Source: Balanoglossus misakiensis
Lineage: Eukaryota; Animalia; Hemichordata
DNA: 64,000 nt
Assembly (NCBI GenBank): GCA_040954595.2
Contig: CM082587.2
Span: forward strand, 2,819,000-2,882,999
Direction of reading: 5' to 3'
In this document: piece by piece, positions 4,642 through 51,184 of the stretch
How positions within the stretch are numbered: position 1 is the first letter of the stretch
How the letters are laid out: every line of letters begins with the position of its first letter
Position numbers and translations under genes: made by a program
The notes under the pieces: model-generated
Told to the model about the DNA's origin: nothing
The model's input: the letters and a program-made list of their open reading frames with translations, nothing else
Databases searched by the model: none

Positions 4642-15299
<10,658 letters not shown>

Positions 15300-20257: not shown

Positions 20258-21021
20258 CCTTTCAGTGCTCAATCTGAAAGCCAGAGAAACGCCCAAGCAG
20301 ATCAACCAGTTGTTACGTCAAACAACAATGTAACTTCACACCAGCAATGAGCAAACTTCAACTCGTTAAAAGTCACAGCGCTTTTACCTCGGACTGCGAC
20401 GCGAAACTGAGGCGATCTTGTTTCCGCTTCGATTTATATCCCCCTTTAGCCTGTGTAGTGTGATACATCATGATCCGAAAGCGGACACCGGTCTAAAAAT
20501 ACCGACAGTCCTACCATTCGTTATGTCATGTCAGTTTCCAGTCTGTTTACATGTAGATTGCTGCCATATTGAAATAAGTTCGATGCCACGCCCCCTAATG
20601 ACCCAGGTCAATCTTATATCTCATGCCACATTCAAAGACCGACAAACATGTTCGGTTTACACGAAATTACCCTTGTTTTCATTTTTTTCAAACAAAAATA
20701 ACAACACATATACTTTAAATTTTAAAAAGCGCACTTTTGGGCACTTTACCATTTGAACTCGTACGTGTCATGAACTTTCACCTTTGACACAGTGGAGCAG
20801 ACAGCATAGCACACGACGTGCGTCCAAGGTTCTCATATCCGCGTCGTCTTGCAGAAAGATGTGACCGACTTAGCACCTACAGGTAAAGTTGTCATGTTTA
20901 CAAGCTGGTTTTCAACCCTCCTACATGTAAATCCCAAAGCTTTGCAGCAACTCGTGCCAAGGAAGGCATAATATTGAACCGAACGTGGGTGTATCACAAA
21001 ACTGCTGCCTGGGACATCATC

Positions 21022-23889: not shown

Positions 23890-24007
23890 TCAGCGCTCGT
23901 TTATATGCATTCATCACACACAGTAGATCAAGGTCGGATTGAACTTGTCCAGAATGTTGTATATGTGACACAAGTATCAGTTGACTGGACCATACATCAC
24001 GTACACG

Positions 24008-26354
24008 ATGCAGCGACTAGGTAGCGTAATGATGGCATCGGCCAAACGTGGCAAAATCATTGAATTGTCCCGACATATGAGTTTTCTGAGAGATTTTCAG
24101 GAGGGATATAAAGAAAACGCATCATTCTCGCCGTATGACAATGGATCCGGTGAAAAACAGCTACCCGACAGAGCTGATATAGTTATTATTGGCGGCGGAA
24201 TTATGGGGTCAAGCATTGCATATTTCTTGAAACGGAGAACAGCACAGAGTGTAGTGGTTGTGGAAAGGGACCCGGCGGTAATTAGCATCTCTTTTGTTAT
24301 TTGTGGCCACTGGTCATGCTATTTTTTCTCCAAAATGGATATGGTGTTACTGGACGGCCAGACTGTAAGCCAAAGCAGACCGCCTTCGCATATTGCCACA
24401 AACAATCATTTGGCAACGAACATCTGTGCACAGCTCAGCATCAAGGTCTTGAAATATACAATGCATTTCAAAGTCAACCTGGTATTGACCTTTGAGTATG
24501 GGTATGGGGTCAGCTTTTTTTTGCACACATGACAACAAAATTTCCATTTTATAAAAATTAAGTAACCTTTCCCTTTTATTTGCTTAAAGTACACACGGGC
24601 ATCAACTGTACTTTCCTTTGGCGGTATTCGTCACCAGTTTTCCCTGCCGGAAAACATTCAGATGTCAATGTTCGGTTCCCAATTCTTGAAGACTGTGAAG
24701 GAATATCTGACGGTTGATTACGCAGATCCTCCAGACGTGCAATTCCACAAACAGGGCTACTTGATTCTGGCGAGCAAGAATGGGGCCGATAGACTGATAC
24801 AAAATGTCAAGACCCAGCAGTAAGTATGAATACACTGTCTTTGATGGGATGGTTTGTGTTGTTATGAAACCTCATGCATGTGAGGTGAGGTGAGATTCGG
24901 TTGTTTTCTACACTGCATCTGTGTGCTGATTAAAAGTGCATTAGTTTAATCTTCTCTAAAATGATTACCTGATTGATCCCTACAGAGAATGTGGTGCAGA
25001 AACACATCTTCTCAGCGCAGCTCAGTTGAAGGACAAATTTCCCTGGCTGAACACAGACGGCATCGAACTGGGAGGTTACGGTAAGTAGAGTGCCACCCTT
25101 CGCTTATAATGGTCTGTTGTGAAAGGCAAGACTTGTTGAGGGTTCTGCATTTTGTTTTGATTGACAGGTGCAACCAGCGAAGGTTGGTTTGATCCTTGGT
25201 CGCTATTGGATGCTTTCAAGCGCAAAGCGTCGTCGCTGGGGGTCCAGTATGTCCACGGGGAAGTGACAGGCGCGAGAATGAAACAGGAGAAGTCACAGCA
25301 GGACGCCGGTGTCCAGTCGGACTCTAGCAAAGTCAAGTATCTGGAGGTAAAATGCGGCCTTAATTTGCGATGAAGTTTTTGCAACTAGATGGCAAATGAA
25401 CAAAGTGACACAACTTGTGGGAAAAACAAATTTGTAATTGTTAACATGTTCATTTTCCACTACAGATTTCCCTTCCAAATAGCAGGGAAGCGGTGCCATT
25501 AGTCTGCGGGACAGTCATCAACTGTGCGGGACCCCAGGCGGCCGATGTCGCCAGACTCATGAAGATAGGACTCGGTGAGGGCGATATGAGTGTAGCCCTG
25601 CCTGTAGAACCCAGAAAAAGGTTTCTGTTTGTCTTCCACAGTCCAAAAGGACCCGGGGAAGACAGTCCAATGACAGTGGACCCATCAGGGGCATATTTCA
25701 GAAGAGAAGGGCTTGGCGGAATGTACATTGGCAGTATTGCGCCAAAAGAGGTAATCACACAAGCAAGCATTTTCTGAATGTTTCATTGCATAAACACTGT
25801 ACGACATTTAATTGTCTATGAGATCTGTTCTGGTTTAGAGAAATTGAAGAATTTGTTTTTGTTTCCAGGGGGAAGAACCTAGTACAGAAGACTTGCAGGT
25901 CAATTACGATTGGTTTGATGAGAAAGTGTGGCCTCTGCTTGCACATCGAGTACCAGCTTTTGAAAATTTGAAAGTGAGTACACAGTGTTCCAATGATTCT
26001 CTTTATATAGTGGTATCTGATAAAGCTGATTTAATCACTCATAATTATACTAATGCGAGCAAAATTTATCCTAACTTTTCTTTATTGTTTTCTCAATAGG
26101 TCAGGAATGCGTGGGCTGGATTCTATGAGTATAACACTGTTGACCAGAATTGCATTATTGGCCAGCATCCGGTCGTATCAAATCTGTATCTGGCCAATGG
26201 TTTCAGTGGTCACGGAATCATGCAGGGACCAGCGGCCGGGAGAGCAATGAGCGAACTCATCTTGGACGGCAGGTTCACGTCAATAGACCTGTCCAGATTT
26301 AGCTTCAAGAGAATCATCAACAATAAGCCAATTCCCGAAAGAAACATACTATGA
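24008..26354 (+). CDS. FOXRED1: FAD-dependent oxidoreductase FOXRED1-like, paralog B; multi-exon
   Basis: DIVIIGGGIMGSSIAYFLK, YTRASTVLSFGGIRHQFSLPENIQMS, EGWFDPWSLL, LPVEPRKRF, YFRREGLGG, AWAGFYEYNTVDQN, ANGFSGHGIMQGPAAG. Intron positions match paralog A. The exact start Met is uncertain. Confidence 0.9.
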
Positions 26355-33319: not shown

Positions 33320-34092
33320 TAAAAGGAGACTCAGTACAGTCAAATAGTAATCTGTATTGTGTAAAGACATGAATTAAAATGTAAAAATGTTAAAGCATAG
33401 GCAATATAACTTGTTATTCAAAACTCTGGGGAAAGTAGGTACTTTACTGTCTATGGGGAAGGTGTCAATAGGGTGTCATCATGTACAAATAAAATTCAAA
33501 CTCGTGAAAGACATGTTTGATGTCAAAACATACAGACACCCATAGATTGTTGCGCGTAGATAATTCTAACCTAGCTAGGGGGTAAGACTGGCAGCGACTC
33601 TAGACCCCCTAGCCCAGGCTAGCTACAACCTCTTGTGGGGGAGAATCCGCATCTTTTTTTCTGAAGAGAGATGTTGTTATATTTGATTTATGGTTTAGAT
33701 ATGCTTATGGTTAAGCTGACATATTGGAGCGTACTCATTGTTGTGTGGATCATATAAAGTACAGTTGCTTCGAACCAGAAACATGTTTACGAGGCATGGC
33801 CTGAAAGCAAGTTAATTTTCAAACAATGTGTCCGTCATATTTAAGTTTATATATTACGGGTGCGTGTGTCAACTTGGTTATCCCGATAAACATGCTATTT
33901 GCAGATAAATACCCCAAAAGGTGTCGCCCGTGCGACGCCCAATATAAATCTGTGTACTCCTGTATATCAATACCTGAGGCCAGGGCCATGGCCGTAAAAA
34001 TAAATAAAACTTATCAATTTAATAACCAAAGTCCATTCGCGGTTGCCGTTGGATACGCATCGCACCGATCATACCTGAGTACACAACAAAAC

Positions 34093-35829
34093 ATGGCGGT
34101 CCCTAAACCACGTCGCAACAAGAACGGGGACCTGGTCCTGGATCTCAGCCGGAAAAACTACACGACGTTGCCGGCAGACGCGTTGACGCACCCAGGGATC
34201 GACGTTCTCACACTGTGTGAGAATAGACTGACGGTGCTGCCGGCGGCGGCCAGTACCTTCAGGTCGCTACGCGTACTCGACCTCTGCAAGAACTATATGG
34301 AGACCTTCCCGGCTCCCGTTCTACAGATGCAGCAGCTGAAAAGTCTCGACCTGTCGTTCAACAAATTATCGAGCATAAGCAAAGAGATCAAGGGCCTCGT
34401 TAATCTGACTGTTCTGCTTTTATCTCATAATAGTTTTAAGAGGTTCCCGGATGAGGTCTGCTTGATCAAGAAGTTGGACACACTCGACATCAGTTACAAC
34501 GCTATTGACCACATCCCTCCGTCCATTGCTCAGCTGCAAACGCTCACCGAATTGAACGCGTCGAATAACAAGATCGCGGAAATATCCGACGAGATTTACG
34601 GCAACAGGCGATTGAACATCATCGATTTGTCGAACAACCAACTGGAGAGGTTGCCGCCGTTGATTTGCATCGAACTCTCGAAACTGAGCAAGCTCACCCT
34701 CAACGGGAATGACCTGCGAGAACCGCCGAAGGATGTGTGCGACAAAGGTGTGCTTGCCGTTCGCGAGTACCAACAGTTGCAGAGGCAGCGGCAGGCTACC
34801 GGGACCGACCGCAGTCTTGGACCCGCCCGTTCGCTCCACACTCGCGGTGGAAGATACCCTCTGAGAAAGGGCCTCGTGGTGATCATCTGCAATGACAAGT
34901 TTGCCACAAGAGAGGCCAGACCAGGCGCTGCAGTAGACAGAGGTACTAAAATGTTTGAATCTTTGAAAGTTTAATTATTAAACTAACGTACATTTATATT
35001 TTTAGGCATGGGCGTGTCTGTTGTAGCCGACAATTCCGAAATAAGCATGATTATAGTATATTTTACCAAATAAAATAAGCCAATCGACAAGAAAAGCTCA
35101 AGACATCGAATGACTGAAGATATGGACAGGCCATCCGACTTGGCTAATTTTCAAGCAACTTGATATTTACCCAGATGTATAGGTACAAATAGTAGTCAAA
35201 TAGGTTAAGAAGTTGGTCAGGTTATTATATTAATACGTTTTTCTCTTATTTCCGAAGACCGTATAAAGGACGCATTCAAACGATATCCGTTCGAAATGCA
35301 AGTCTTCAACGACTTGAAGGGCGACGAGATGCTTTTCTCCTTGAAACTTCTGCGGAAAATGGAGCAGGAATTTGATTGTCTGATCGTCTTCCTTCTGGGT
35401 CACGGCACTCTTAGCACCTCCCTCGGATCCGACGGTAAATGCATCAACTTGCGGGAGATAGTCCAGGTGTTCTCTTCGGAATCGTGTCCCAGACTGGCCG
35501 GGAAACCCAAGCTGTTCTTCCAGCAGTGTTTCCAAGCGGACGCCAACGACCCCGGCCAGTTCACCCTCCCGAGCGAAGACGATTTCATGTTCGGCTCCTC
35601 CATGATCCCGACCCTGGAGGGTTACCGCGTCGCTACGCAGAAGTCGTCGCCCTACATCGAGGCCATGTGCCGGTTCATCAAAGAGGAAGGAGCCAGCAAT
35701 CACGTGGCGGAGATCATGACCATGGTAGCGGACGAGATGAAGACACGGGTGTATACGGTGAAGGGACAGAAACTGAAAATGAACACTGTTCTGTTTGGAA
35801 CTTTGACAAAGCAACTGTGGTTGAAGTAG
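34093..35829 (+). CDS. LRR + caspase-like (pseudocaspase) protein, copy 1; exons 34093-34942 and 35258-35829, 473 aa
   Basis: About 9 LxxLxLxxNxL repeats, cap LREPPKDVCDKGVLAVREY, then caspase fold: YPLRKGLVVIICNDKF..ARPGAAVDRDRIKDAF, CLIVFLLGHG, CPRLAGKPKLFFQQCFQ, small-subunit LPSEDDFMFGSS..GYR..SPYIEAMC..GTLTKQLWL. GT-AG phase-1 intron. Confidence 0.88.
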
Positions 35830-37154
35830 AAGACAAAGACTCAAGCAAAAGAAAATTTCTATTGGAAGATCTTCCCATGCTAAAATATTCTTTCAATGCA
35901 TTTTTGTAAATGTGTCATTTGTATGCAGGATACCATTTAAACATGTAAGATAGAAATATCGATTAACGTTTAATCTCCGATATATTGATTCGTGACACTA
36001 TGTATATAAACACCAAGTATTTATATGCCCAGTAGTTTTTGTGACAATGATTTTTATGATAAACTCACTGATAATAAACGTGGCCCACCAACTGGCCGAT
36101 ATATTAACGTAGGACCGCCATATCAACGTTCGACAATTAGGTAGTACAAGTTGAGTGTTACATCCATAATTACCATGTCGTGAGATCTTATGTATTCCAG
36201 GGTCTGTAGTTGACATGTCACCGTCCTTTGTATTAAAACGAATAAAGTAAACACGTTCGATTTATTTCGTTGATTGATTGATGACATACTAGTAGTTCCT
36301 TTTGCTGGAATAACATTGTGTAAAGCGCACATTTTTCTCTCTCTGGGAGACGTACAAATGTTGGCCGCCAATGGAATGGTCAAACGGTAGACACTATAAA
36401 CGGACCCGTCCAATCAAGAACACGACACCTGCGCTTTGATTAATTGCCACCAATGCTTATCTATTAAACCTCCAAACACAGGTCATTCTGGTGGGTGGCT
36501 AAGTGCGGATTAAGGAACAGGTGTGCATGCGCGGTTCGCCATCCTGGTAGAGTCACGATTTGACATTCGACCCCGAATTCTTCACACCCTACTTTTCCGC
36601 CCCTCCCTTACATGCCCTATACATGCTTACATCAATGTGTGCATATCTTTATAAATCTGACGGGAAGAAGAGATCCACAACTTGATCATATATGGTTTGC
36701 TGGTTTTATTAGTTGGGCGGGGCTGTGGGGGATCACAATTAGATGTATATAAGTGTGGTGGGAAGTTCATAAAGTAATTTTCACAGTGTAAAGGTAACCC
36801 CTCCGGAATGTGACCTCAAAATCACATGTCATCCCTGGGCCCTCTCCTTATAAAGTAGCCCTGGAGATGGGAACTTTACACGGTTGAAGATCAAAGATAA
36901 CGAGGTTTACCAGTCTGTGTGTCACTGTCTCAGGTTGTCTGTCGTTCTGTCCGTTTGTCTGCTTATATGTCTGTATGTCTCTGCCACTCTCTCTCTGCTT
37001 GCCCACCTGCCTGTCCCCCTCTCCGTCTATCTATCTTCTATCTTTACTATGTTTATTTCCATCCAGCGACAATATGAATGGTTAAAGTTCAATAGAGAGA
37101 TGTTGCCAGGGGCAATATGACAACCACGCGTAGTCAAGAAGCCCACAACAGAAA

Positions 37155-39062
37155 ATGGCGTCCGCCATCGCACCACGTCGCAACCAGAACGGGGACTTGA
37201 TCCTCGATCTATGCCGGAGGAACTACACCTCAATACCGGCAGATGCGTTCACGCACACCAACATAGATATCCTCAGACTGTCCGAGAACAGACTGACCGT
37301 ACTCGCCGCGGCTACCAGCTCATTCAGAACACTGCGCGTACTCGAACTCCGCAAGAATTACCTGGAGACCTTCCCACCACCGATTCTGGAGCTGCAACAC
37401 CTGAGAAGCCTAGACCTGTCTTTCAACAAACTATCGAGCGTGAGCAAGGGCGTTAAAGGACTCGTAAACCTCGCCATCCTGCTCCTATCTAACAACAGTT
37501 TCAGGAAATTTCCAGAAGAAGTTTGTCTGATCAAGAAGTTAGAGAAACTCGACATCAGCAACTGCCGCATCGACGACGTTCCCGCGTCTGTTGCCCAACT
37601 CCAAACCCTCGCGGAGCTGGATGTCTCCTGCAACCAGATCACCGACATATCGCAGGAGATATACCGCAACCGATGTTTGCACACGCTCAACTTATCGAAC
37701 AACAAGCTGGAAAGGCTGCCCCCGTTGCTCTGTGTGAGGCTCACGAGATTGGGAGAGTTGAAATTGAGCGGCAACGACATGAGGGAACCGCCCAAGGATG
37801 TCTGCGAGAAAGGCCTAGCCGCAGTCCAGGAATATCAACAGAAACGGCAGCTAGTTCGCCCGGTAGCGACCGTCAATCCCCGTAGTCCCCGCACTCCCGT
37901 TCCTAGATACCGCATGAAAAGAGGGCTGGTGGCCATCATCTGCAATGAAAAATACACCAGCAGAGAAGCTAGGCCCGGTTCCTTGGTAGACAGAGGTGAG
38001 AACTCCACAAAAGTCCATCAGCACAAGCCGTTCTTCACCATTATTCCAATAATGTCCGACAAAACAGACAGGACTACCCTGTATTCACCCCAAAAGAAAA
38101 CAACTGCGTTTATTGCCTCAGAAAGTTATGTTACAATAACCTATTATTATGTACTGCAGTAAATAACACGGATACTATTCTTATGAATAAGTCAAATTAA
38201 TAATACCGCATCTGTGGGTCACTATGAGGGTGGTATGTCCACGCTGACACAGATTTAGTCACGTACTAGGCAACTATTTGAGATGCGGTGAGATGATAAA
38301 TTCATTTTGTGACTGGACGATGTACATGCAACCACATGCACAGCAACTCTGCTGAGGACAATAAACAAACACGCATGCACGACAGTAGATATAGATTTGA
38401 ACTAGAAGTAGACTCTCTCAACGCGAATTATTTCTCTATATATCACACTGAAAAAATAATATTTTTTCTCTTCTTTCAATTTATGGACAGACCGGCTAAG
38501 AGATGCCTTCAAGAAATATCCATTCAGCATCAAAGTATTCAACAACTTGGACGGCGGAGAAATGCTATACTCGCTCAAACTTTTGTGCAAAATGGATGAC
38601 GATATCGACTGCTTAATTCTCTTCCTGCTCACTCATGGGACGCCTACTTCGGCCCTCGGGGTCGACGGAAAGAGCATCTGCTTCAAAGACGTCGTGGAGA
38701 CCTTCTCCGCGGAATCGTGTCCTCGGCTGGTCGGAAAACCGAAGTTGATCTTCCAGCAGGGTTACCAGTCGGACGCCAAGGACACGGGCCAGTTCGTGCT
38801 GCCGAACGAAGACGATTTCATGTTCGGGTCTTCGATGATCGCAACGTACGAAGCCTACCGCGAAGCGACGCAGAAGTCGTCGCCGTACATCGAGTCTATA
38901 TGTCGCTTCACCAAGGAGTACGGCGAGACGAACCACATGACGGAGGTCATGACCATGGTGGCCGATCAGATGAAGACGAGGACGTACTCCGTGCGGGGCA
39001 AGCCGACCAAAATGGGGACATTTCTGATCGGAACGCTGACCAAACAACTGTGGCTAAAGTGA
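37155..39062 (+). CDS. LRR + pseudocaspase protein, copy 2; exons 37155-37995 and 38491-39062, 470 aa
   Basis: Same architecture and intron position as copy 1. Motifs LLTHG and GKPKLIFQQGYQ (catalytic Cys position is Tyr). Confidence 0.88.
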
Positions 39063-39231
39063 AACATGTGCACGATTTACTCTTTGGAAGCTGTCCAATG
39101 ATAACGTGCAGTAGAAAGCTGCCCATTGAGATGCACAGTAAAGAATTTGAACAGTGATTTCTATTGATTTTTTTTATAAACTAAATTTTGTTTCTTAAAC
39201 TCTTCCGAGTAAATCGGTCGCTCAAAAAGTG

Positions 39232-39258
39232 TAAATAAATAAATGAATAAATAAATAA
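39232..39258. repeat. (TAAA)n microsatellite / polyadenylation-signal cluster after copy 2
   Basis: taaataaataaatgaataaataaataa. Confidence 0.7.
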
Positions 39259-39911
39259 GGTTTTCCTAGTTAATTCAGATTCCGACCATATTGATTGGTC
39301 AATTATTTTCCACAGTGTGATTGGTCAGTTTGGAACAGGTGTGCAATATAAGACGCTCCAGACAACCGGGCGTTGACCCTATGGTGTCTGTCCGCATCTC
39401 TGCTGACGTAACTCTAAACTAGGGCGGACGTATTCGCACCTGTTGTACCTGGTTCCTTTGGAATGCAAATATATTTGTAGATGAGACTCGGTTCTGACAC
39501 AACAGTCTGGTGGTATTGAGCAACACCCCTGCTCATTAATTCAGCCAATCAGCAGTAGATCCATAATTGACCCCTAAAATGTCATGACCATGATCACATG
39601 GTGACTAGGGATCCGAGGTTGCCATGGTTAGAGTCTCTCGACATGCAACTAGCAAAATGTCGAAAACGAAGACCAAAATGCTAGACTGTGTGTGGAGAGC
39701 AAAGCGAAACAGGCACGAGTCTGGATTCTACAATATTTGCGTAGTCAAGAGAAATTGCGAGCTGTTGTCTACCTGTACACCAAAACGACGAGCAAAGGAA
39801 CCATCGGTGGATATATACAACCACAAATAATTAACCCAATGCCACTTGACATGTAGCCAAGGTTACTATTAGATACTCTGACGACATCGTACAACATACA
39901 GTAGTAAAAAA

Positions 39912-41482
39912 ATGTCTTCCCTGATCAAACCTCGTCGGAACCAAAATGGGGATTTGACCCTAAATCTGTGCGGGAGGAATTACTCAACAATCCCCGCAGA
40001 TGCCTTCGTGTATCCTAATATCGACGTTCTCAACTTGTCAGAGAACAGGCTGACTGTACTGCCGGCAGCAGCCAGCTCATTCAAGTCGCTACGAGTTCTC
40101 CAACTTCGACGGAACTATCTAGAGAGCTTTCCGTCGCCGGTTCTGGAGCTGCAGCAACTGAGGAGTCTGGACCTGTCGTTCAACAAGCTATCTGGTGTCA
40201 GCAAGGAGATCAAGGGACTTGTCCACTTAACCGTCCTGTTGCTGTCGAACAACAACTTCAGGAGGTTCCCTGAAGAAGTCTGTCCCCTCAAGCGGTTGGA
40301 GACACTTCACGTGAACAACTGTGGCATCCCCTCCGTCCCCGCGTCCATCGCCCACCTCGAAAGCCTCACCGAACTGGAAGCGTCCGGAAACCAGATCACG
40401 GACGTGTCCGATGAAATCTGCGGGAACAGACGTTTGACCACGGTCAACTTGTCGAACAACAAGCTGGAAAGGCTACCGCCGCTGCTGTGTGTCAAGCTCA
40501 CCAATCTAGACGGGTTGCAACTGACAGGCAACGACATGAGGGAACCGCCAAAAGATGTCTGCCAGAGAGGCGTGGCAGCCATCAGGGAGTACCAGGGACG
40601 CCAGGAACGACTGCGAGGGCAACAACGACATCCAGGTGTCTCCGACAAATATCCTCTCAGAAGAGGCTTGGTTGCCATCATTTGCAATGAGAAGTTTACA
40701 AGCAGAGAAGCCAGACCTGGATCGCTAGTCGATAGAGGTAAACGAAAACACGTATTTCATAAGATGTTCAGAGGAAGGCGCTGTACGTGCCTAATCTGCT
40801 TTCCCTCTGGTTTCTAAAAATTCCTGTGGACTAAAACATAACGATTATAAATTTTGTTGGTCACTCTTCTCATACTAACTTATATAGTTCTGTTTGTCAA
40901 TGGACAGATCGATTGAAGGATGCTTTCAAGCATTATCCTTTCGAGGTGCAGGTCTTCAACAACTTGGACGGCGACGAGATGCTGTACACGTTGAAACTCC
41001 TGCGGAAAATGGAGCAGGAAATCGACTGCTTGATTATCTTCCTCCTGAGCCACGGGACGTTGACGTGCTCGCTCGGGAGTGACTGCAAGTACATCAATTT
41101 GGCGGACATCATGCAGACCTTTTCGGCCGAGTTCTGTCCCAGGATGGTTGGGAAACCCAAGCTATTCTTCCAGCAGGGCTTCCAGTCGGATGCCAAGGAC
41201 CCCGGGGGTCAGTTCACCATCCCTGGCGAGGACGATTTCATGTTCGGCTCGTCGATGATCCCAACCTACGAGGGATACCGGACCGCTACCCAGAAATCGT
41301 CGCCCTACATCGAGGCCCTGTGCCGGTGCATCAAGGAGAACGGCTCCACAAATCACGTGGCGGAGATTATGACCCTTGTGGCAGACGAAATGAAGGCCCG
41401 GATGTTCACGGTGAAGGGACAGAAACTGAAAATGAACACCGTCCAATTTGGAACTCTAACGAAGCAGTTGTGGTTAAAATAG
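39912..41482 (+). CDS. LRR + pseudocaspase protein, copy 3; exons 39912-40737 and 40908-41482, 466 aa
   Basis: Same architecture and intron position. Motifs LLSHG and GKPKLFFQQGFQ. Confidence 0.88.
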
Positions 41483-42430
41483 AAATATAGAGACAGATAC
41501 ACACGATCCCAATAATGAATAACGTGATTCTCCGTTACCTGTTTGACTGAAAAGACAGTACACCCTGTTATTCGTTGTCAAATATCTCAAAGAAACCCAT
41601 TTCGAGAATTCTCAAATACACGTATCTTTGCCAAATGGCAACAATATTGCGTAATATTTTAAAGAAAGGTGTACGAAAGACTTTGTACAGTACACTGTTA
41701 AGGTTTTCTTACGACCGTACTTTCTGTTTTTTATACAACTGTAGTTAGAACGTGATATCTAGAGGCTCCCTGATTTTGTATCTGGAACGCTTATATAACC
41801 GTGTTGATTCACACACTTATGCTTTCTTACATCCGCCTTGTATTAATCTGTCGCACAACAAGCTCACCTGAGCTCCCACGCTACCAGGAAAATCTTCGCT
41901 CAGCAGAATGGAACATCTGCGAAAACCAATAGCAGTTGTCAAGCAAACAGGAAAGGATACATGTTCACCATGGTAACCTCATTGTCATGTCGTCTTATAC
42001 AAGTAGCGCTAATTGGGCCCTAGTGGCGCAGTACAAGACGGATACTCCTTGTGTCAATGCTAACAAGTACAACGTGACGAAGGCGTTACTTGACATTCAG
42101 AATTACCGGTCTTATTCTTTAAAGAGATTGACCATAATTTGTATTTATAATATTCTATAGCCTCTTCCGTGTGCATACAAATGTAATCGATATATGTCCT
42201 TTGTGTCCCTCGTCTTGATATTGTATTGTATTGTAGCTTGTACATAATCCTTTTATTAGGAAATGTTTTTTTTAACGATTAAACAAAAACAGGTCTTGAC
42301 ATCTCCATGATCATTTTAAACGTCTACTCATTAAACATTATCACGCAAATTGTGAATAGTATCCCACAAGAGATGTTGGTTCAGGGTTTGCTTATGGTGG
42401 AGAATCCGCCTTGGTGATAAAGTTGGCGTA

Positions 42431-42500
42431 TGTGTGTGTGTGTGAGAGAGAAAGAGAGAGAGAGAGAGAGAGTCTGAGAGAGAGAGAGAGAGAGAGAGAG
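42431..42500. repeat. (TG)n(AG)n compound microsatellite
   Basis: tgtgtgtgtgtgtgagagagaaagagagag... seen directly. Confidence 0.9.
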
Positions 42501-42943
42501 TTTGAAATTATACCGTCAAGTTTTGTGTTGTGGAACATATGCAGTACCTAATGCTCAATTATAGACGACGCTTTGGAAGCCCTGACGGTAGCATTTGAAG
42601 AATGGCCAAGATGATTTAAAAAAAAAACGTTTGGGAGTCTCATCGCTTTCAGTGGGAGATGGTAGCAATGGCTACAAAAAGTGCTTTGGTCGCAGTAAGG
42701 CTGGCCACTCTAGCAAGACATATTCGGAGATTTCGAAGATCGGAGACATCCACACATGGCTATTCAGCACTCATGCAGGCAGGATACTGGACGTTGCGTC
42801 CACATCTACGTGCCGGACAGAACCACCTGTTGCGTCTGCATACAACATTACCATACACGTGGTAGCCAAAGTCCTTCTGCGGGTCATTTAGCGTTACCAC
42901 TGGATACCATCGACCATATTGGTGGCGAGAGGACAACATAAAA

Positions 42944-44728
42944 ATGGCTGCTGCTGCTGTCAGACCTGTCCGTGACAGAAACGGAGACCTTGTTCTCGAC
43001 CTGTGTCGAAGGAACTACGCGGCAGTGCCGCCAGACGCGTTCATTAACACGGCCATCGACGTACTCAGACTGTCCGAAAACAGACTGACCGCCCTCCCAG
43101 CGGCGGCCGGTACATTCAAGTCACTGCGCGTACTCGAACTTCGCCGAAATTACATCGAGGGATTCCCGCCGCCTATTCTGGAGATGAAACAGTTGAGGAG
43201 CCTCGACCTGTCGTTCAACAAAATTTCAGCCGTCAGTGGAGGCATAAGCGGCCTCACCAATCTAATGGTCCTGTCGCTATCCAACAACAACTTCAAGAAG
43301 TTCCCAGAAGAAGTCTGTCTGATCAAAAATCTGGACAAGCTACTTCTGAGCAACTGCAAGATCGAGTCCGTCCCACCAGCAGTGTCGCAACTACGAGCAC
43401 TGAGCGAACTGGACCTCTCCAACAACCGCATCACAGACATATCCGTCGAAATATACAGAAACGTAAACTTGATCGCTTTGAATTTTTCCAACAACAAACT
43501 GGAAACGTTGCCGCCCTTACTTTCCACCGAACTCACGGGGCTATCTAGTCTGAGTCTGGAGGGCAACGACTTGAGGGAACCGCCAAAGGACATCTGCAAC
43601 AGGGGTTTGGCCGCTGTTCGGGATTATCAGCGGCAGCAGCGTCAAAAACTAGCCAGCGCGCCGTTGTCTGGACGCCAACGAGGACACGCCGCTATCTCTC
43701 GCTACCGTATGAAAAGGGGACTTGTGGCAATCATCAGCAACGAAAAGTTCACCACCAGAGAAGCAAGACCCGGCTCCAAAGTTGACGCAGGTTAGGAACA
43801 GTCAGATCACTTCATTGCAGTAAACTGTTAATCCACATGTCGTTGGTTTGGTGCTATTCCAAACCGCTCGTTATCTATGTTGAACTCAAAATAAATAAAA
43901 TTCCCGTTTTGCTCAGTTACAATATTGCTTTAGTCAATTAATTACATTACGGGCATTACATCTATTACCGAATTGAACGAGTCATTGTTGATGAGACAGT
44001 CCCCTTGAGCAAGAACGAGGACGTATAGTTTACCATCAACAAGCACCTGTTTTGTAATGAAGTCACCGACAGAGCTTTGTTTCTGATCACCAATTTCGGA
44101 CGTATTTTAATAACTATTTTACTTTCGCCGTTTATAAACAGATCGACTGAAAGATGCTTTCAAGCATTATCCGTTCGAAGTGCAGGTCTTCAACAACCTG
44201 GACGGCGACGAGATGCTGTACACCTTGAAACTCCTGCGGAAAATGGAAGAGGAAATTGATTGCCTGATGGTGTTCCTCTTGAGTCACGGCTCGCTGAGCT
44301 GCTCGCTTGGCAGCGACGGCAAGTGCGTCAACTTGCGGGATATAGTGCAGCTCTTCTCTTCGGAATCGTGTCCCAGACTGGCCGGGAAACCCAAGCTGTT
44401 CTTCCAGCAGTGTTTCCAAGCGGACGCCAACGACCCCGGCCAGTTCACCCTCCCGAGCGAAGACGATTTCATGTTCGGCTCCTCCATGATCCCGACCCTG
44501 GAGGGTTACCGCGTCTCTACGCAGAAGTCGTCGCCCTACATCGAGGCCATGTGCCGGTTCATCAAACAAACCGGCTCCGCAAATCACATGGCAGAGATTA
44601 TGACCATGGTGGCGGACGAAATGAAGACCAGAATATACATGGTGAGGGAACAGAAACTGAAAATGAACACTGTTCTGTTTGGGACTCTGACGAAACAGCT
44701 GTGGCTGACAGATAGAATCAGAAGATAA
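42944..44728 (+). CDS. LRR + pseudocaspase protein, copy 4; exons 42944-43790 and 44142-44728, 477 aa
   Basis: Same architecture and intron position. Motifs LLSHG and GKPKLFFQQCFQ; short C-terminal extension TDRIRR. Confidence 0.88.
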
Positions 44729-46159
44729 CATGACTTTTAATGCAGTACTGGCACACCCTAAAGCTGACATTATTTCAAGTAGAATCGGACGCGAACGATC
44801 GGAATTCAGTAGATTGCAGATAGGTACTAACTCTTCTTGGTTTTCCAGTTTAATGACATTGGAAAATCTGTTTGAAAGCGACGAAATTTTGCTATGCAAA
44901 TGCGACTGGCGTTATACGAAGACCATGCTTCCAATAGGTTTAATTCATATCATGTGATTGGACTTATCGATTGACATACCAAGATAACCTCTTGACACTT
45001 ATCACACCCGTACATGTGTCGTGTCGTCCCATCTCTGTGAACACTCCTTGTTACAAAGATAGCCTTTGATCTGACCTTTATAATCCCCATTCGGCAATTT
45101 ATGTCTTGTCGGTAATTTTAAAACAAACACTTGGCGCCCAGTCAGCATATCGTGGAGAAAAAAATGTGAATTCGGTAGCTCATGATGTTTTGATGTCTCA
45201 AACATGTTCACCGTTCCCAGTTGAATTCAAAATACGGCTGGAGTGCCTGTATTCTGCAGAGAGACAGTGTACGTGACACCGAGGGGACGTCATTAGCAAT
45301 TAATTGCGGCTGTGGGTGGTTTTGACCGTTTATCACGGCGAAGCCCACCTGGTGACCATCGGGAAATGCCTTTATGAAGAAAACATACACAGTCAACCAA
45401 AGGACAAAAGACAAGTTTCAGTAAAAGGCGAATTTCTCAGCGAGCGCAGTGAACACTTCGACCACTGGCAGGAAACTGAGGAAAAAAGCCCAATTATGAA
45501 CATCATCTCAAAAATCATAAATGCCATTATGCCATTTCCGTTCCTAATCTCACTTTCGCATATCGCTGTTGTACTATTGCATGCAATATACTGTCTTTGA
45601 TTTTCCGAATTTTTGTGAATTTTTTCTCGTTTGTTATAAGATTCCTACATAACTTTTTTGTGTGTGTGGACCGGTTGGGAGCTCTCTGAGATTCATGAAA
45701 TAGCGGTATCTGAAAACAACCAAACTCCATCTTTGTCAAGTTCTTCCAAGATGATCAGTCTGAAGCACATTTTCTCCCCTACACCTCAGATAAAATGAAA
45801 CAAACTCAGGGCTGCATATTAAAATTTATGATGAGAGGGAAGAGACCTCTCCAGCTCACGCTTTATGCGTGTGAAGTAGGAAATGAAGACGAAAACAACA
45901 TCATGTGGCCGGATTAAAATCTTAATGAAAAAAAAACATCGTGACCGCGGTCGTTGCCATGCAACACGTTCAAGACAGCATTATTAAACTTGTTTTCGTG
46001 AATAACGTGATTACTTTCGAGCCTTAATTTCACTGGTCAACGAACCGCAATTTACCACTGTGATTGGCGCTGAGTGTCACGTGCTTCCTACCCTAAAAGT
46101 CTTGACCACTCCGTCGATTTGTCAAACTTCTGCTGCTGCTGCTCTGAGCAAGAAGAAAG

Positions 46160-47152
46160 ATGCAAAATTCATCACTGACCGATTGCAACGGTTTCGCCCT
46201 GCCTCAAAACTCCAGCCTCCTGTATAGTGATGGCGAACGCCAGATACTGCTTACCAACAGACTTGAGGATCAACTGTATCAGGTCGTCACTTCCATCATT
46301 CTGTCAATTACCATCATCGTCGGAACCGCGGGCAACGTTGCCGTCATCGCGCTCATAGCTGTCAAAAAACCCATGCGCACGCCGCCGAATTTTCAGTTGG
46401 CAAGCCTGGCCCTGGCAGATTTGTTCGCCTGCACCATACCATCTCCCGTGTACCTGCACGGCCTCGTAGCCCTGTTGAATGGATCGTACGACGTCTGTTC
46501 AAAAGTAAAGCAAGCGAGTTGTTCCGTGATTTTGGTGACTTTCCAGTTCGCCTTCTTTACTTCTCTGCTGACGGTGACTACGGTGAGCATCACACGCGCT
46601 GTGGCCATCAGTAACAGACTGAGCGCGAGTCAAAAGAAGAAGATGATCGGTGTATTCGTTGCGTCAAGTTACGCCTGTGGCATCGCTCGTGGCATATATG
46701 TTTTGCTGACACGCGGAGTTGACCGCTCGTGTCTCCACTATGCGGTGTCGGCGGAACGCAGAGAAGACGACGGCGGCGCGAGAGCATTCCTACCGGTGAG
46801 CGTCCTCATTGGGGCCGTGGTTGTGACTCTTTGCTACGTCTACATCCAGGTAAAAGTTCGACGAGCCAGTGCTGCCGTCCATGCTCACAACAGTGCCAGC
46901 TCTGCCCAGAATCCTGATAATGAAAACAACATGGGCACGAACAAGGTTATCGTAACAATTGTGGTGACATTTTTTGCCCTGTACACACCACAAGCCATAT
47001 CATTCATAATGTATTTGTTTGGCATGGTGAAATTTGATGGTTCATCATTTGCGAAGTACATTTTCCTGAGCATATGGCTCGCTGGAAGCGCTGCCAATCC
47101 TATTATTTACGTTTTCAGATCAAGAGCATTTAGAAGCCACTTCAGGAAATGA
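46160..47152 (+). CDS. Orphan rhodopsin-like (class A) GPCR, single exon, 330 aa
   Basis: Seven hydrophobic segments; GN in TM1, SLALADL in TM2, ITRAVAI at the DRY position, LYTP in TM6, ANPIIY in TM7, helix 8 FRSHF; N-terminal NSS glycosylation sequons. Confidence 0.88.
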   Translation: MQNSSLTDCNGFALPQNSSLLYSDGERQILLTNRLEDQLYQVVTSIILSITIIVGTAGNVAVIALIAVKKPMRTPPNFQLASLALADLFACTIPSPVYLHGLVALLNGSYDVCSKVKQASCSVILVTFQFAFFTSLLTVTTVSITRAVAISNRLSASQKKKMIGVFVASSYACGIARGIYVLLTRGVDRSCLHYAVSAERREDDGGARAFLPVSVLIGAVVVTLCYVYIQVKVRRASAAVHAHNSASSAQNPDNENNMGTNKVIVTIVVTFFALYTPQAISFIMYLFGMVKFDGSSFAKYIFLSIWLAGSAANPIIYVFRSRAFRSHFRK

Positions 47153-47702
47153 TATTATGGAACACACACCTCGGGAATCGATTGCCGTAAAAAACGTTGT
47201 GAGGGCCTTCACTTTGTAGACACTGTCGCCGCTTTGTGGATGCGTGTCCAGGTTCACGTCGTCAGTTTTTATGGAATGCTAACAGGGAATGCAAACGCGT
47301 GCGCACACACACGCACCTTCACTTCAAGAATCCTTCGTTTTGGTGATAGATGCGAATCGTTGCTAAGTATCTATATCCCACTAATCGGACTTCTTCTTGC
47401 TGTATTGTCCATTCTTGCCATTGTATTCCCTCTCCACGTGACGTTTTGTACAACTAACGCGGAAGTAGTGCGTTACTTAACTTGTGCATTGTATCACATA
47501 CCTGTCAGTTTCGCATTATGGGTATGACTGTCACACTGAATATAGCAGCAATGGGGCAAATATCTCACTATATATATATTAATGTTTCGCTGTATTTTGC
47601 TAGCAAATGCTGTCGTTCAGCGTGATAGCGAAAGTGTTTCATAGCTGAGCTCAGATAATGCTTCACAGACAATACTTCTCTACGTACGCGTAATTTCCAC
47701 GA

Positions 47703-47713
47703 GGGGATTCCCC
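47703..47713. promoter_or_regulatory. NF-kappaB (Rel) consensus site upstream of the TRAF gene
   Basis: GGGGATTCCCC, a p50-type kappaB palindrome about 210 bp before the TRAF ATG. Confidence 0.55.
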
Positions 47714-47920
47714 ATGCCTACCCATTCGTTTCCTATGAAACATGGAACTAATAATAGAAGTGCTATTATTAACATAACATTACGTGAACTAAACTATAAA
47801 ACGCAGATTTGGGTTATTTTACGCAAAAGCCTATCGTCGGTCCAGAAAAGTGAACTCAGCACAAGTCTATATCGACTGACATTAAAACTATATGTATATT
47901 TAGACGTGCCGTATATACAC

Positions 47921-50900
47921 ATGTCTTCCGGGTACATTGTCGGTATATTTGGAAGCCATGCGCCGGATTCAAAATATTTGTGCAATTTTTGTGATCAAAT
48001 TTTGAAGGAACCCATGCAAACTTTTTGCGGTCATCGTTACTGTAAACAGTGTCTGGAACAGATCTTTTCAAGGTAAAGATTTCATTGTCGATAGTCTCAT
48101 TGATGTCTTCCTCTGTCTGTCTCTCTGTCTCTCTGTCTCTCTGTCTGTCTACTTCAATCCCGATGTACTTAACGTCGTCAATCGCAACGACTCCAAATTT
48201 CTTCTTTTAACATTTACAGGAGACACGCCTGTAGTGCCGGAACAGAAAGAAATGTAGGCTAAGATACAGCAGTACCTGTCACATGAATACTAGCATTCGT
48301 CATAAACTAAATAAAATAAAGGCATAGGCGAACTGACCAGGCGTCGGACAAACCCGAATGAGAATAAGATATAGTGTTCTGACCCTTCGTATTTTCTCGT
48401 TTTCTTTTTTCTGCAGTAGTGGCGAATCAGAGTTGTCTTGCAAAGCATGTCAGAGGGAAGGAAGCAACGATTCGCTATTGAGCACAGATCAGGTAAGAAA
48501 GGAAAAAATAAATGTCACAGCAATAGCGTTGACCAGAGTTTTTTGTCGCAGCTGAAATCAGAAATTGCAGTGCGGACAAACAGTTCGGATAGCATGTACC
48601 GACATGGGAACAATCGAACGATCGTCACTATTTGGTGAATCAACAAAAACAGGCTGTCATGAATGTTTTCTAGTGGTTTGACGTCACGTGTTGACCGTCT
48701 TGTAACTTTCAGATGTATAAAGACAGAGCAATTCTCAGAGAACTCAACGACTGCAGCGTAGAATGCCCAAATGAAGACTGCGATTGGAAAGGTCTCTACA
48801 AAGAATTTGACCGGGTAAGTAAAAAACCAGACCACCACAAAGCTTAATACGGAAATAACCTTGGTGAACCCACCGGGTTTTTCTATGCTGTTTACCATTT
48901 AAGGGAAAAAAATAGGGCGGCACGACATTTAAGCCAACTAATAATAGGGAACAAAATAACATTTAGTTCTTTTTATGTATTTTCGAGTGCTTCCGGGAGA
49001 TAAAATGCGTCCAGGTTGACTAGCGAATCCCGAAATAGCACTACTTGACCTGCGGGCAATGGCTGTCGTGCTAAGGCGGCTACGCAAGAACACGCGGGTC
49101 TTCGATTATCGGTAGATGTGAATCACATCGGGGTCAACAAGTCTCAACAAAAATGTCGAAATTTATTCTATAACTATAAAATATTCACCTCATTTATTGT
49201 GTTCGTAGGAGCATGTAGGTGGGTGTCCATCGGCTCTGATCGTCTGCATCAAGTCTGGTTGCGGAGCGAAGATAAAGAGAGATGTTTTAGCGGAACATTT
49301 GGAGAAGGAATGCACGATGAGGGTGGTCCAGTGCCGGTACTGCAAGGCAGAGCTACCGTACAGAGAACTCCAGGTAATGATATGCCGTAAAGGTTATAGT
49401 TTTTGTCTTTCTGAAGGACTTTATAACTCTGATGACTCAAAATGGGAAACGCGCGCTGCAGATTTGGGAGGATGGGAGGAGGAGCTGAATTAAAACAAAC
49501 CACGTGATTAGTCACTGCATTATCAACGTTTATTTTGGATTTCACTCACTTTGCAAATTTCTCCACGAGAAATGCATTCTTATTTTACACTTTTCTGAAT
49601 AAAAAATCCTATAATTTTGCTAAACGTATTGTTCATTTTTTTCTAACGACAGGTTCATTATGAAGAATGCGCTCAGTTTCCAATAAAATGTCAATTTTGT
49701 CACAAGGGGGATATCATTCGCGAAGAGGTGAGTCCGTTGGAAAATACCGCAATTTTTTTTCTAACTGTATCCAATGACATCACTGCCTCGTGACGTGACG
49801 TTTCACTTTCAGGTGACAGGTGTGTGATAACAATGTGAGGCGCACGTGATTCAGTTCAAGCTTCCGGGGTTTGCTCGGTTCTTTACACCCATTCATATTT
49901 AGACCATCTCAATTCTTTACTGCTCAAATTTCTTCATATAAACCACACCTTGTCCATCTTTCTCGTTTTAGCTGGCAGCCCATCTGAATACGGAAACTGG
50001 GGATTGTCCTAAGAAACTCTCACCTTGCAAATTTAAAGAAGTCGGATGCAGCGAACTGGTACGTAAATATCACGTCCGTGTTTCGCTTGTTGATTTTTTT
50101 ACCGGAAAGTTCTAAGGCCTAATAAAGAATGCGCTAAAATAATGTTGTTATCCATTTCCAGATCGAAGATGACAAAAAGGAAGATCATAACAAGGGATTC
50201 GTCGGTGAGCACCTGATAATGGTGATGAATACGATGCTGACCGTACTCTCTGCGGTCCAAAATGGGAAAGCCGATAATGGTGTGGACGAAGCAAAGAGAA
50301 AAATCGACGAACAGGACAAGAAGATCGACAGACTGGCCAGCGAATCGAAGAACCTGGAAACAGAAATGCAGGCGCTCAAAGAAAATCTGAAGAAAACAGC
50401 GGTTGTTGAGAATGGACTTAGTCTAACTGGATTCAAGACATCCCTAGAAAAAGTCCGGTCTGATTTTGAGACTCTTGGTAACAAACAGACGGTTTTACAG
50501 ACCAAAGTGACGACTTGCGAGGGAATCGTAGCCGTCTTGAATAAACAGATCGAGGAGGATCAGGGACGGTTGCACGAGGTGGAAAAGAGCAAACGGAGGG
50601 AAGGTGAGAAGATTGTAGAATTGGAACGCAAAGTCCAAGCACAGGACAGAATTATAGCGTTGAAGGATGTGGCTTTGGCTGAGAAGGACTTGAGAATACA
50701 ATCTTTAGAGACGGCTTCATATGATGGTGTTTTACTTTGGAAGATCTCGGATATAGCAAGAAAGCGCCGGGATGCAGTCTCGGGTAAAACCGTCTCCATT
50801 TATTCCCCGTGTTTCTACACAAGTCGCCATGGCTACAAGATGTGCGCCCGCATCTACCTGAATGGCGACGGTATGGGCAAAGGTAATCACGTGTCTGTCT

Positions 50901-51184
50901 TTTTCGTCGTCATGAAGGGCCATTATGACGCTCTCTTGAGATGGCCCTTTCGCCAGAAGGTCACTTTGATGTGGATCGATCAGAATAACAGGGAACACGT
51001 GATAGATGCTTTCAGACCGGATCCGTCATCGTCTTCTTTCAGAAGACCGACACAGGATATGAACATTGCAAGTGGGTGTCCTCTGTTCATGCCACTGTCG
51101 CAACTGGACAGTCCCAGACACGCCTACGTCAAAGATGATGTAGCATTTCTGAAAGTAATTGTGGATACGAGTGATTTGATTTAA
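47921..51184 (+). CDS. TRAF2: TNF receptor-associated factor, TRAF2(/1/5)-like; RING, TRAF zinc fingers, coiled coil, MATH; 7 coding exons
   Basis: SKYLCNFCDQILKEPMQTFCGHRYCKQC; MATH domain SYDGVLLWKISD..YSPCFYTSRHGYKMCARIYLNGDG..DALLRWPFRQKVTL..DQNNREHVIDAFRPD..DMNIASGCPLF, closest to recalled TRAF2. Confidence 0.88.

What the first reader, a model, noticed from the sequence alone, without database searches (positions are those of the whole stretch)
34093..44728. Tandem array of four LRR-caspase-fold fusion genes: candidate undescribed one-component sensor/caspase-regulator family
Seen: four intact, co-oriented two-exon genes (466-477 aa). Each has about 9 LRRs with no signal peptide or TM segment, a short basic linker, and a complete caspase fold (large and small subunit motifs). 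Known: well-characterised animal caspase prodomains are CARD or DED, and LRR sensors (NLRs, PIDD1) normally reach caspases through adaptors. I do not recognise a characterised family with LRR fused directly to a caspase domain. Inference: a ligand-sensing receptor wired directly to a caspase-dimerising module, expanded locally like an immune gene family. Similar fusions may already exist unannotated in other invertebrate genomes.
Basis: partly seen in the sequence, partly recalled or inferred. Interest (0 to 1): 0.9.

Follow-up and report, generated by a model that had tools for sequence, protein, structure and literature searches.

The report
Acorn worm LRR pseudo-caspase gene array
Four neighbouring genes, likely from an acorn worm, each join leucine-rich repeats to a caspase fold that lacks the cutting cysteine, and they likely act as regulators of related LRR-caspases that kept their cutting residues and that we found only in acorn worms.

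Summary
In detail: four intact two-exon genes of 473, 470, 466 and 477 aa, each with nine LRRs, a basic linker and a whole caspase fold. The fusion does not depend on splicing, because exon 1 already runs from the LRRs into the caspase's first strand.

What the finding did not state: all four, and all three Ptychodera flava orthologues, carry Phe or Tyr where the catalytic cysteine belongs. His237 and the Asp-pocket Arg179, Gln283 and Arg341 are kept. They are pseudo-caspases.

Seven LRR-caspases that keep the catalytic cysteine turned up in Ptychodera, Glandiceps and Saccoglossus, among caspase-8/10 sequences. No LRR-caspase from another group appeared in the listed hits.

The array is old, under purifying selection, and has a conserved LRR face, so it does not look like a diversifying pathogen-receptor family.

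Best reading (0.45): c-FLIP-like regulators in which LRRs replace DEDs. A modelled heterodimer passed (0.82 vs 0.00), possibly from memory of solved caspase dimers. No expression, ligand or function is shown. Nine literature searches found no description.

The parts
34093..34942 (+). g1 exon 1: nine LRRs, C-terminal cap, 28-aa basic linker, caspase beta1 and Arg179 motif
35258..35829 (+). g1 exon 2: rest of caspase fold; His codon 35401-35403 kept; Phe at catalytic Cys position (35530-35532)
37155..37995 (+). g2 exon 1 (likely orthologue of P. flava P0003; LRR identity 79%)
38491..39062 (+). g2 exon 2: Tyr at catalytic Cys position (38763-38765)
39912..40737 (+). g3 exon 1 (likely orthologue of P. 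flava P0001)
40908..41482 (+). g3 exon 2: Phe at catalytic Cys position (41180-41182)
42944..43790 (+). g4 exon 1 (likely orthologue of P. flava P0002)
44142..44728 (+). g4 exon 2: Phe at catalytic Cys position (44414-44416)
35470..35682 (+). Likely gene-conversion tract shared with g4 (44354-44566): 213 nt with one mismatch, covering the former catalytic loop and the Arg341 loop

Best explanation
The four genes encode LRR-bearing pseudo-caspases that lack the catalytic cysteine and likely work as c-FLIP-like regulators, predicted to pair through the caspase dimer surface with active caspase-8-type enzymes (most likely the acorn-worm LRR-caspases), with the LRRs likely doing the recruiting job that DEDs do in c-FLIP.

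Shown: the architecture; Cys285 replaced by Phe/Tyr in 7 of 7 family members; His237, Arg179, Gln283 and Arg341 kept in 7 of 7; an intersubunit linker cut to 13-14 residues; purifying selection; and LRR-caspases with an intact cysteine in three acorn-worm genera.

Inferred, in order: (1) an LRR cassette with a Roco/LRRD1-type cap was joined to a caspase-8 domain in an acorn-worm ancestor; (2) one copy lost its nucleophile, diverged quickly and duplicated in tandem; (3) the conserved concave face of LRR2-4 binds a conserved cytosolic partner or platform; (4) there the dead domain forms a half-active heterodimer that damps full caspase-8 activation or narrows its substrates, and its short linker would make it independent of cleavage.
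For: Catalytic column: Phe/Tyr in 7 of 7 family rows against Cys in 53 of 55 other caspase rows. The oxyanion-hole Gly238 is Ala in 2 of 3 P. flava members.

Fold: AlphaFold2 model of P0003 has mean pLDDT 90.3 and a disordered linker at 239-250. Top Foldseek matches are caspases, TM about 0.75-0.83 by target.

Selection: dN far below dS in all 6 paralogue pairs for both domains.

Partners exist: P0039 (Glandiceps), P0274 and P0021 (Saccoglossus), and P0155, P0072, P0043, P0025 (Ptychodera) have LRRs plus a caspase with the catalytic Cys.

Relatedness: in the 28-row tree the pseudo-caspases fall with caspase-8/10 (99/96), and all 10 LRR-caspase rows are one side of a branch (56/67). The family's LRR profile scores four of the relatives highest per domain (134-147 bits; P0155, P0274, P0039 and the split LRR-only model P0160) against at most 114 for the other LRR proteins in hand.

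Complex model of the P0072 and P0003 caspase domains: score 0.82, best of 3 controls 0.00, runs agree in at least 52% of contacts, partner pLDDT at least 81, interface on the C-terminal strand and flanking helices. That mark was reached by 51 of 78 solved complexes and 2 of 108 mismatched pairs (microbial calibration).

Against: The complex pass may come from memory of solved caspase dimers and does not tell which family member binds; a homodimer was not tested.

Caspase-8 ancestry of the dead domain is not established. Its stem is very long (1.84-3.37 changes per column), support was only 67/78 in the 49-row tree, and the AU test does not reject placing it with non-caspase-8 rows (p 0.338). 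Identity to the LRR-caspases with an intact cysteine is only 27-29%.

Keeping all three S1-pocket residues and His237 is not required by a simple dimer-partner role and points to peptide binding, although 94 of 219 caspase columns are invariant anyway.

No active caspase lies in the window, unlike cFLIP, which lies beside caspase-8. No genome was available to show that this species has an active LRR-caspase. No expression data.
Confidence: 0.45

Rival explanations
1. Sensor-helper pair: the LRRs recognise a microbial or damage ligand in the cytosol, and ligand binding lets the dead caspase domain switch on a partner caspase-8.
For: Cytosolic LRR array on a flexible linker. LRR5-9 exposed concave positions vary between paralogues (4 of 30 invariant). 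The heterodimer models well. cFLIP-L can activate caspase-8 without interdomain cleavage (PMC11994107, passages).
Against: LRR2-4 concave face is conserved (10 of 18 invariant against 4 of 18 convex). The array is small and old with likely one-to-one orthologues, and dN/dS is well below 1. No oligomerising NTPase domain.
Confidence: 0.2
2. Decoy or reader: the kept Asp pocket binds P1-Asp peptides (caspase substrates, fresh caspase-cut C-termini, or pathogen caspase inhibitors) without cutting, and the LRRs pass on the signal or sequester the catch.
For: Arg179, His237, Gln283 and Arg341 are invariant in 7 of 7 despite only 27-29% overall identity to active relatives. The g1/g4 conversion tract covers the former active-site loops.
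Against: A bulky Phe/Tyr at position 285 could block the site (inference; coordinates could not be inspected). The Gln-x-Pro motif before the last strand, present in most of the caspase-8-type rows, is absent. Background invariance is 43%.
Confidence: 0.2
3. Scaffold unrelated to cell death: the caspase fold serves only as a homodimerisation module that presents two LRR arrays as a SHOC2-like adaptor.
For: Structural neighbours of the LRR part are MFHAS1, LRRD1, SHOC2 and LRRC69 clusters. Long divergence from active caspases.
Against: The heterodimer with an active caspase models well, and S1-pocket residues would have no reason to stay.
Confidence: 0.1
4. Active protease with a shifted nucleophile, using Cys284 in g1 and g4.
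For: g1 and g4 carry a Cys next to the catalytic position and keep His-Gly.
Against: Position 284 is Gly, Gly, Gly, Gly and Ala in the other five members. g1 and g4 share it through one near-identical tract, so it is a single event.
Confidence: 0.05

Closest known systems
c-FLIP-L (CFLAR), the vertebrate caspase-8 pseudo-enzyme
   Same: Whole caspase fold without catalysis, beside catalytically intact caspase-8-type relatives (PMC11121540 passages). An aromatic residue at the catalytic Cys position is also a c-FLIP feature (Tyr; recalled, a search for it gave 0 papers).
   Different: LRRs instead of tandem DEDs; His237 and S1 residues kept; very short intersubunit linker; three or four tandem paralogues; no active caspase beside them in the window. 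Orthology to c-FLIP was not tested (no c-FLIP sequence in the trees); the LRR link to acorn-worm caspases suggests an independent origin.
Caspase-8/10 (DED initiator caspases)
   Same: The LRR-caspases with an intact cysteine have QACQx and fall among caspase-8/10 sequences; the window's domains keep the S1 residues.
   Different: No DED; no catalytic Cys in the window's genes; placement of the dead domain in this clade is favoured but not proven.
NLRs and PIDD1 (LRR sensors that reach caspases through adaptors)
   Same: Cytosolic LRRs linked to caspase control (general knowledge; NLR definition in PMC8662601 passages).
   Different: No NACHT/NB-ARC, ZU5 or death-fold domain; the caspase fold is in the same chain.
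Roco/MFHAS1/LRRD1-type LRR proteins
   Same: The LRR array ends in an N-x-L-x-x-P-P-x-x-V-x-x-x-G cap also seen in two Roc-COR proteins in hand; the nearest predicted structures include MFHAS1 and LRRD1 clusters.
   Different: A caspase fold follows the cap instead of Roc-COR or a death domain.
Unnamed acorn-worm RefSeq proteins XP_070582054-56 (P. flava) and the LRR-caspases XP_077999233, XP_070545591, XP_002732925, XP_070533318, XP_070548498, XP_070569699, XP_006816015
   Same: Same domain layout; the first three are 64-71% identical to g1 exon 2 and share the missing Cys.
   Different: Automatic models only, labelled uncharacterized, caspase-7/8-like or LRR-containing; no functional description found.

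Membership tests
Active caspase (peptidase C14A) | Caspase fold with large and small subunits | tested here: met
   Pfam PF00656 in 4 of 4; model of orthologue and Foldseek
Active caspase (peptidase C14A) | Catalytic Cys in QACxG | tested here: not met
   Phe/Tyr in 4 of 4 genes and 3 of 3 orthologues
Active caspase (peptidase C14A) | Catalytic His and S1 residues Arg179, Gln283, Arg341 | tested here: met
   Invariant in 7 of 7
c-FLIP (CFLAR) | Tandem DED prodomain | tested here: not met
   Only LRR families on exon 1 and on P0001-P0003
c-FLIP (CFLAR) | Catalytically dead caspase domain | tested here: met
   By sequence only; activity not assayed
c-FLIP (CFLAR) | Caspase domain belongs to the caspase-8/10 clade | tested here: inconclusive
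   99/96 in one tree, 67/78 in another, AU p 0.338 for the alternative
c-FLIP (CFLAR) | Heterodimer with caspase-8 | tested here: inconclusive
   Model passes, 0.82 vs best control 0.00, but may be from memory of solved dimers
c-FLIP (CFLAR) | Orthology with vertebrate CFLAR | not tested
   No c-FLIP sequence was obtained for the trees
NLR / PIDD1 | NACHT or NB-ARC domain, or ZU5 plus death domain | tested here: not met
   No such Pfam hit; LRR and caspase domains account for the whole chain
Roco / MFHAS1 / LRRD1 | Roc-COR or death domain after the LRRs | tested here: not met
Diversifying LRR immune-receptor array | Hypervariable concave face and recent expansion | tested here: not met
   LRR2-4 concave 10 of 18 invariant, LRR5-9 no more conserved than the convex side; dN/dS low, dS near saturation; a site-wise selection test was not possible with four sequences
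One-component ligand sensor | LRR binds a ligand and this controls caspase output | not testable with these tools
   Needs experiments

The most novel reading that the evidence does not exclude
Acorn worms have built an adaptor-free caspase pathway. LRR-caspase-8 enzymes couple recognition to proteolysis in one chain, and an independently evolved set of LRR pseudo-caspases (this array) pairs with them as c-FLIP-like rheostats or sensor subunits. This would be a second invention of the caspase-8/c-FLIP switch with LRRs in place of death folds.
Probability: 0.3. Interest if true: 0.82.

Novelty: new variant of a known kind. Interest (0 to 1): 0.6.

Why it matters
Animal caspases are usually sorted by CARD or DED prodomains (PMC8662601, passages), and LRR sensors reach them through adaptors. 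Here an LRR prodomain occurs on both catalytically intact and dead caspases in an invertebrate deuterostome lineage. If the pairing holds, it gives a minimal two-protein system for asking whether death-fold filaments are needed to switch on caspase-8, and a second example of how an enzyme/pseudo-enzyme switch evolves. The dead domains keep the Asp pocket, so they also offer a test of whether a pseudo-caspase can read caspase-cut peptides.

Tried and rejected
Data not obtained: no whole genome is held for this window, so copies or partners elsewhere in this species were not searched. No RNA holder was listed for 34050-44000; this is no evidence either way, and no reads were laid.

Structure: single-sequence AlphaFold2 of P0003 failed (pLDDT 31.6) and was redone with a 67-row alignment. 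ESM Atlas feature searches gave no usable hit for P0001 or P0039, which shows neither absence nor novelty.

Homologue searches: a search for short fragments of the family (16-399 aa) found 9 distant caspases and no family member. The search with alignment A3 is incomplete: it listed 120 of 346 hits and did not list P0001-P0003, P0072, P0043 or P0021, which were in the query. Absence outside acorn worms is therefore not proven.

Readings rejected or left open: QQCFQ as an intact active site (register is off by one). The P-x-E-x-x-F stretch as a TRAF6-binding motif (motif recalled; it is the ordinary start of the caspase small subunit, also in caspase-8). Saccoglossus P0018 (Tyr at the Cys position, no LRR, 6.7-kb contig) groups with the family (100/98) but on a 3.3-long branch, so membership is left open.

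Literature: nine searches found no description of LRR-caspases; the single 'LRR-caspase' hit is a multiple sclerosis exome paper (search listing only). An attempt to see a c-FLIP alignment through the PDB search did not list it among the best 60 of 121.

Earlier scan findings: nothing by sequence, nothing for the long word query, and only unrelated organisms for the short one.
Full report
1. Observation. Splicing at GT-AG sites gives intact proteins of 473, 470, 466 and 477 aa with one phase-1 intron (315, 495, 170 and 351 nt) at the same codon. Pfam finds LRR_8 in all four first exons and Peptidase_C14 in all four second exons. Exon 1 already carries the first caspase strand and the Arg179 motif in frame with the LRRs, so the fusion does not rest on the splice prediction. 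tblastn finds these four copies and no others in the 64 kb. Hydropathy shows no signal-like or membrane stretch. Pairwise identity is 64-70%. No RNA holder was listed, so expression is untested.

2. The caspase domain is predicted to be dead. Against solved caspases, KPKLFFQQ[CG][FY]Q aligns without gaps to KPKVFFIQACQG, which puts Phe or Tyr on the nucleophile; the Cys of g1 and g4 sits one residue earlier. In a 67-row alignment the catalytic column is Phe/Tyr in all 7 family members and Cys in 53 of 55 other rows with a residue there. Arg179, His237, Gln283 and Arg341 (caspase-1 numbering, recalled) are invariant in all 7. Gly238 is Ala in two P. flava members. The stretch from the catalytic position to the small-subunit motif is 13-14 residues, against 21-78 in the six intact LRR-caspases measured and 25-34 in six DED caspase-8-type rows. 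An AlphaFold2 model of the orthologue P0003 (pLDDT 90.3, pTM 0.55) shows nine LRR strands, a capping helix, a disordered linker and a caspase fold; the top PDB matches are caspases.

3. Orthologues. A search of proteins of 332-2000 aa with g1 exon 2 found 3 hits among 264 candidates, all from Ptychodera flava, 64-71% identical, each with LRR and caspase domains. They are joined at the same junction as my models. Their accession numbers are consecutive (XP_070582054, 55, 56) and they share one contig length. Their best matches are g2, g3 and g4 in that order; I infer a conserved tandem array, with g1 as an extra copy. The window is therefore most likely from an acorn worm related to, but not the same as, P. 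flava (inference). A profile search of 1.84 billion representatives gave the family's own cluster at 430 bits. The next hits were tandem multi-caspase proteins, and the best single-stretch hit had 117 bits. That hit is a Saccoglossus pseudo-caspase without LRRs (P0018).

4. Relatives with the catalytic cysteine. Of the best 150 of 4891 hits, 6 carry LRRs: P0003 and five proteins with an intact QACQx motif, from Glandiceps talaboti, P. flava (three) and Saccoglossus kowalevskii. A second search listed 120 of 346 hits; 3 had both domains, all from acorn worms, adding P0155. Its model has an insertion inside the catalytic motif, probably an annotation fault. A cluster look-up added the full-length Saccoglossus protein P0274, 78% identical to P0039 in the caspase domain. 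LRR-caspases with an intact cysteine thus occur in three genera that I recall as belonging to three enteropneust families. None from another group appeared in the listed hits, but both lists are truncated and one search missed six of its own eight query proteins.

5. Origin. The intact LRR-caspases fall among caspase-8/10 sequences (tandem multi-caspase proteins were left out, and P0155 and P0043 were missing from the 219-row tree). The pseudo-caspases form a clade on a very long stem. With P0018 in the set they join the caspase-8 side weakly (67/78, 49 rows). Without it they sit inside (99/96), next to P0072 (84/76, 28 rows), and all 10 LRR-caspase rows are one side of a branch at 56/67. The AU test does not reject a position with the non-caspase-8 rows (p 0.338). 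The LRR part points the same way as the best tree: per domain the family profile scores P0155, P0160, P0274 and P0039 at 134-147 bits, above all other LRR proteins in hand, and the C-terminal cap is shared. That set held no animal MFHAS1 or LRRD1. A single fusion followed by loss of catalysis is the simplest account, but it is not proven.

6. Evolution of the array. dN is 0.10-0.30 and dS 0.53 to saturated in all six pairs. Exposed concave positions of LRR2-4 are invariant at 10 of 18 sites against 4 of 18 on the convex side; LRR5-9 show 4 of 30 on both sides (the split into LRR2-4 and LRR5-9 was chosen after seeing the data). This fits a conserved partner better than a race with pathogens. 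g1 and g4 share 213 nt with one mismatch over the former active-site loops, while their first exons are only 57-59% identical as protein. That indicates recent gene conversion and makes the Cys284 of g1 and g4 one event.

7. Mechanism. A model of the P0072 caspase domain with the P0003 pseudo-caspase domain scored 0.82 against 0.00 for the best of three controls. The runs agreed in at least 52% of contacts, partner pLDDT was at least 81, and the interface ran through the last strand and flanking helices; the alignments I supplied were not used. The mark was reached by 51 of 78 solved and 2 of 108 mismatched pairs in a microbial calibration, and solved caspase dimers may be remembered. This shows that the dimer surface is compatible, not that these two bind. 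Taken with the dead active site and the existence of intact relatives, I favour a c-FLIP-like regulator recruited by its LRRs (0.45). Rivals are a ligand sensor that activates a partner caspase (0.2), an Asp-peptide decoy or reader (0.2), a non-death scaffold (0.1) and a shifted-nucleophile protease (0.05).

8. Comparison and novelty. It works like c-FLIP by inference but is not c-FLIP: there are no DEDs, and orthology was not tested. It is not an NLR, PIDD1 or Roco protein. Nine searches of the open library gave no description of LRR-caspases. I read keyword passages, not whole texts or supplements, of PMC8195603 (lineage-specific TRADD-N architectures in marine invertebrates, no LRR-caspase in the passages shown), PMC11121540, PMC11994107, PMC8662601, PMC12409990, PMC13736523 (0 occurrences of LRR) and PMC3196919 (amphioxus caspases with unusual prodomains, 0 occurrences of LRR). 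Subscription papers and the supplements of hemichordate genome and caspase-8 evolution papers were not seen and could mention the architecture. The proteins are already in RefSeq as automatic models.

9. Verdict. Real, conserved and apparently undescribed: a new variant of the caspase-8/pseudo-caspase theme with an LRR prodomain, so far seen only in acorn worms. Interest 0.6. It is kept fairly high because intact and dead LRR-caspases together make a directly testable adaptor-free system.

Noticed in passing
window 47645-51184 (+): A TRAF2/3-type gene (RING, BIRC3-binding and MATH domains) lies about 3 kb downstream of the array, past a GPCR. TRAF2 works with c-FLIP in vertebrates; whether the linkage is conserved was not checked.
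   Followed up: partly
window 46148-47152 (+): Single-frame rhodopsin-family GPCR between the array and the TRAF gene (7tm_1, E 5e-22).
   Followed up: partly
window 19019-20317 (-): TRIM-type exon with RING, B-box and a likely coiled coil.
   Followed up: partly
window 20887-21330 and 23969-24532 (+): Two separate N-terminal exons of FAD-dependent oxidoreductases (DAO family), probably two paralogous genes in tandem.
   Followed up: partly
window about 6480-14000 (+): Exons with a BAH-like hit (E 5e-6, below the curated cutoff) that look like DNA methyltransferase 1 (name recalled, not tested).
   Followed up: no
window 35470-35682 and 44354-44566: Likely recent gene conversion between g1 and g4 limited to the former active-site region.
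   Followed up: yes
P0018 (Saccoglossus XP_002735073): A 225-aa pseudo-caspase with Tyr at the Cys position and no LRR, labelled caspase-2-like, on a 6.7-kb contig; may be a divergent or partial member of this family.
   Followed up: partly
P0160, P0273, P0274 (Saccoglossus): One LRR-caspase appears as a whole 542-aa model and as two split models (LRR part and caspase part) in different records, so annotation can hide this architecture.
   Followed up: partly
P0096 and P0204: Other unusual caspase-8-like fusions among the hits: Pyrin-kinase-caspase and a brittle-star kinase-caspase.
   Followed up: no
window 34943-34974, 37996-38162, 40738-40817, 43791-43795: Each exon-1 frame stops inside the intron, so intron retention would give LRR-only short forms, loosely like c-FLIP-S; no transcript evidence.
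   Followed up: no
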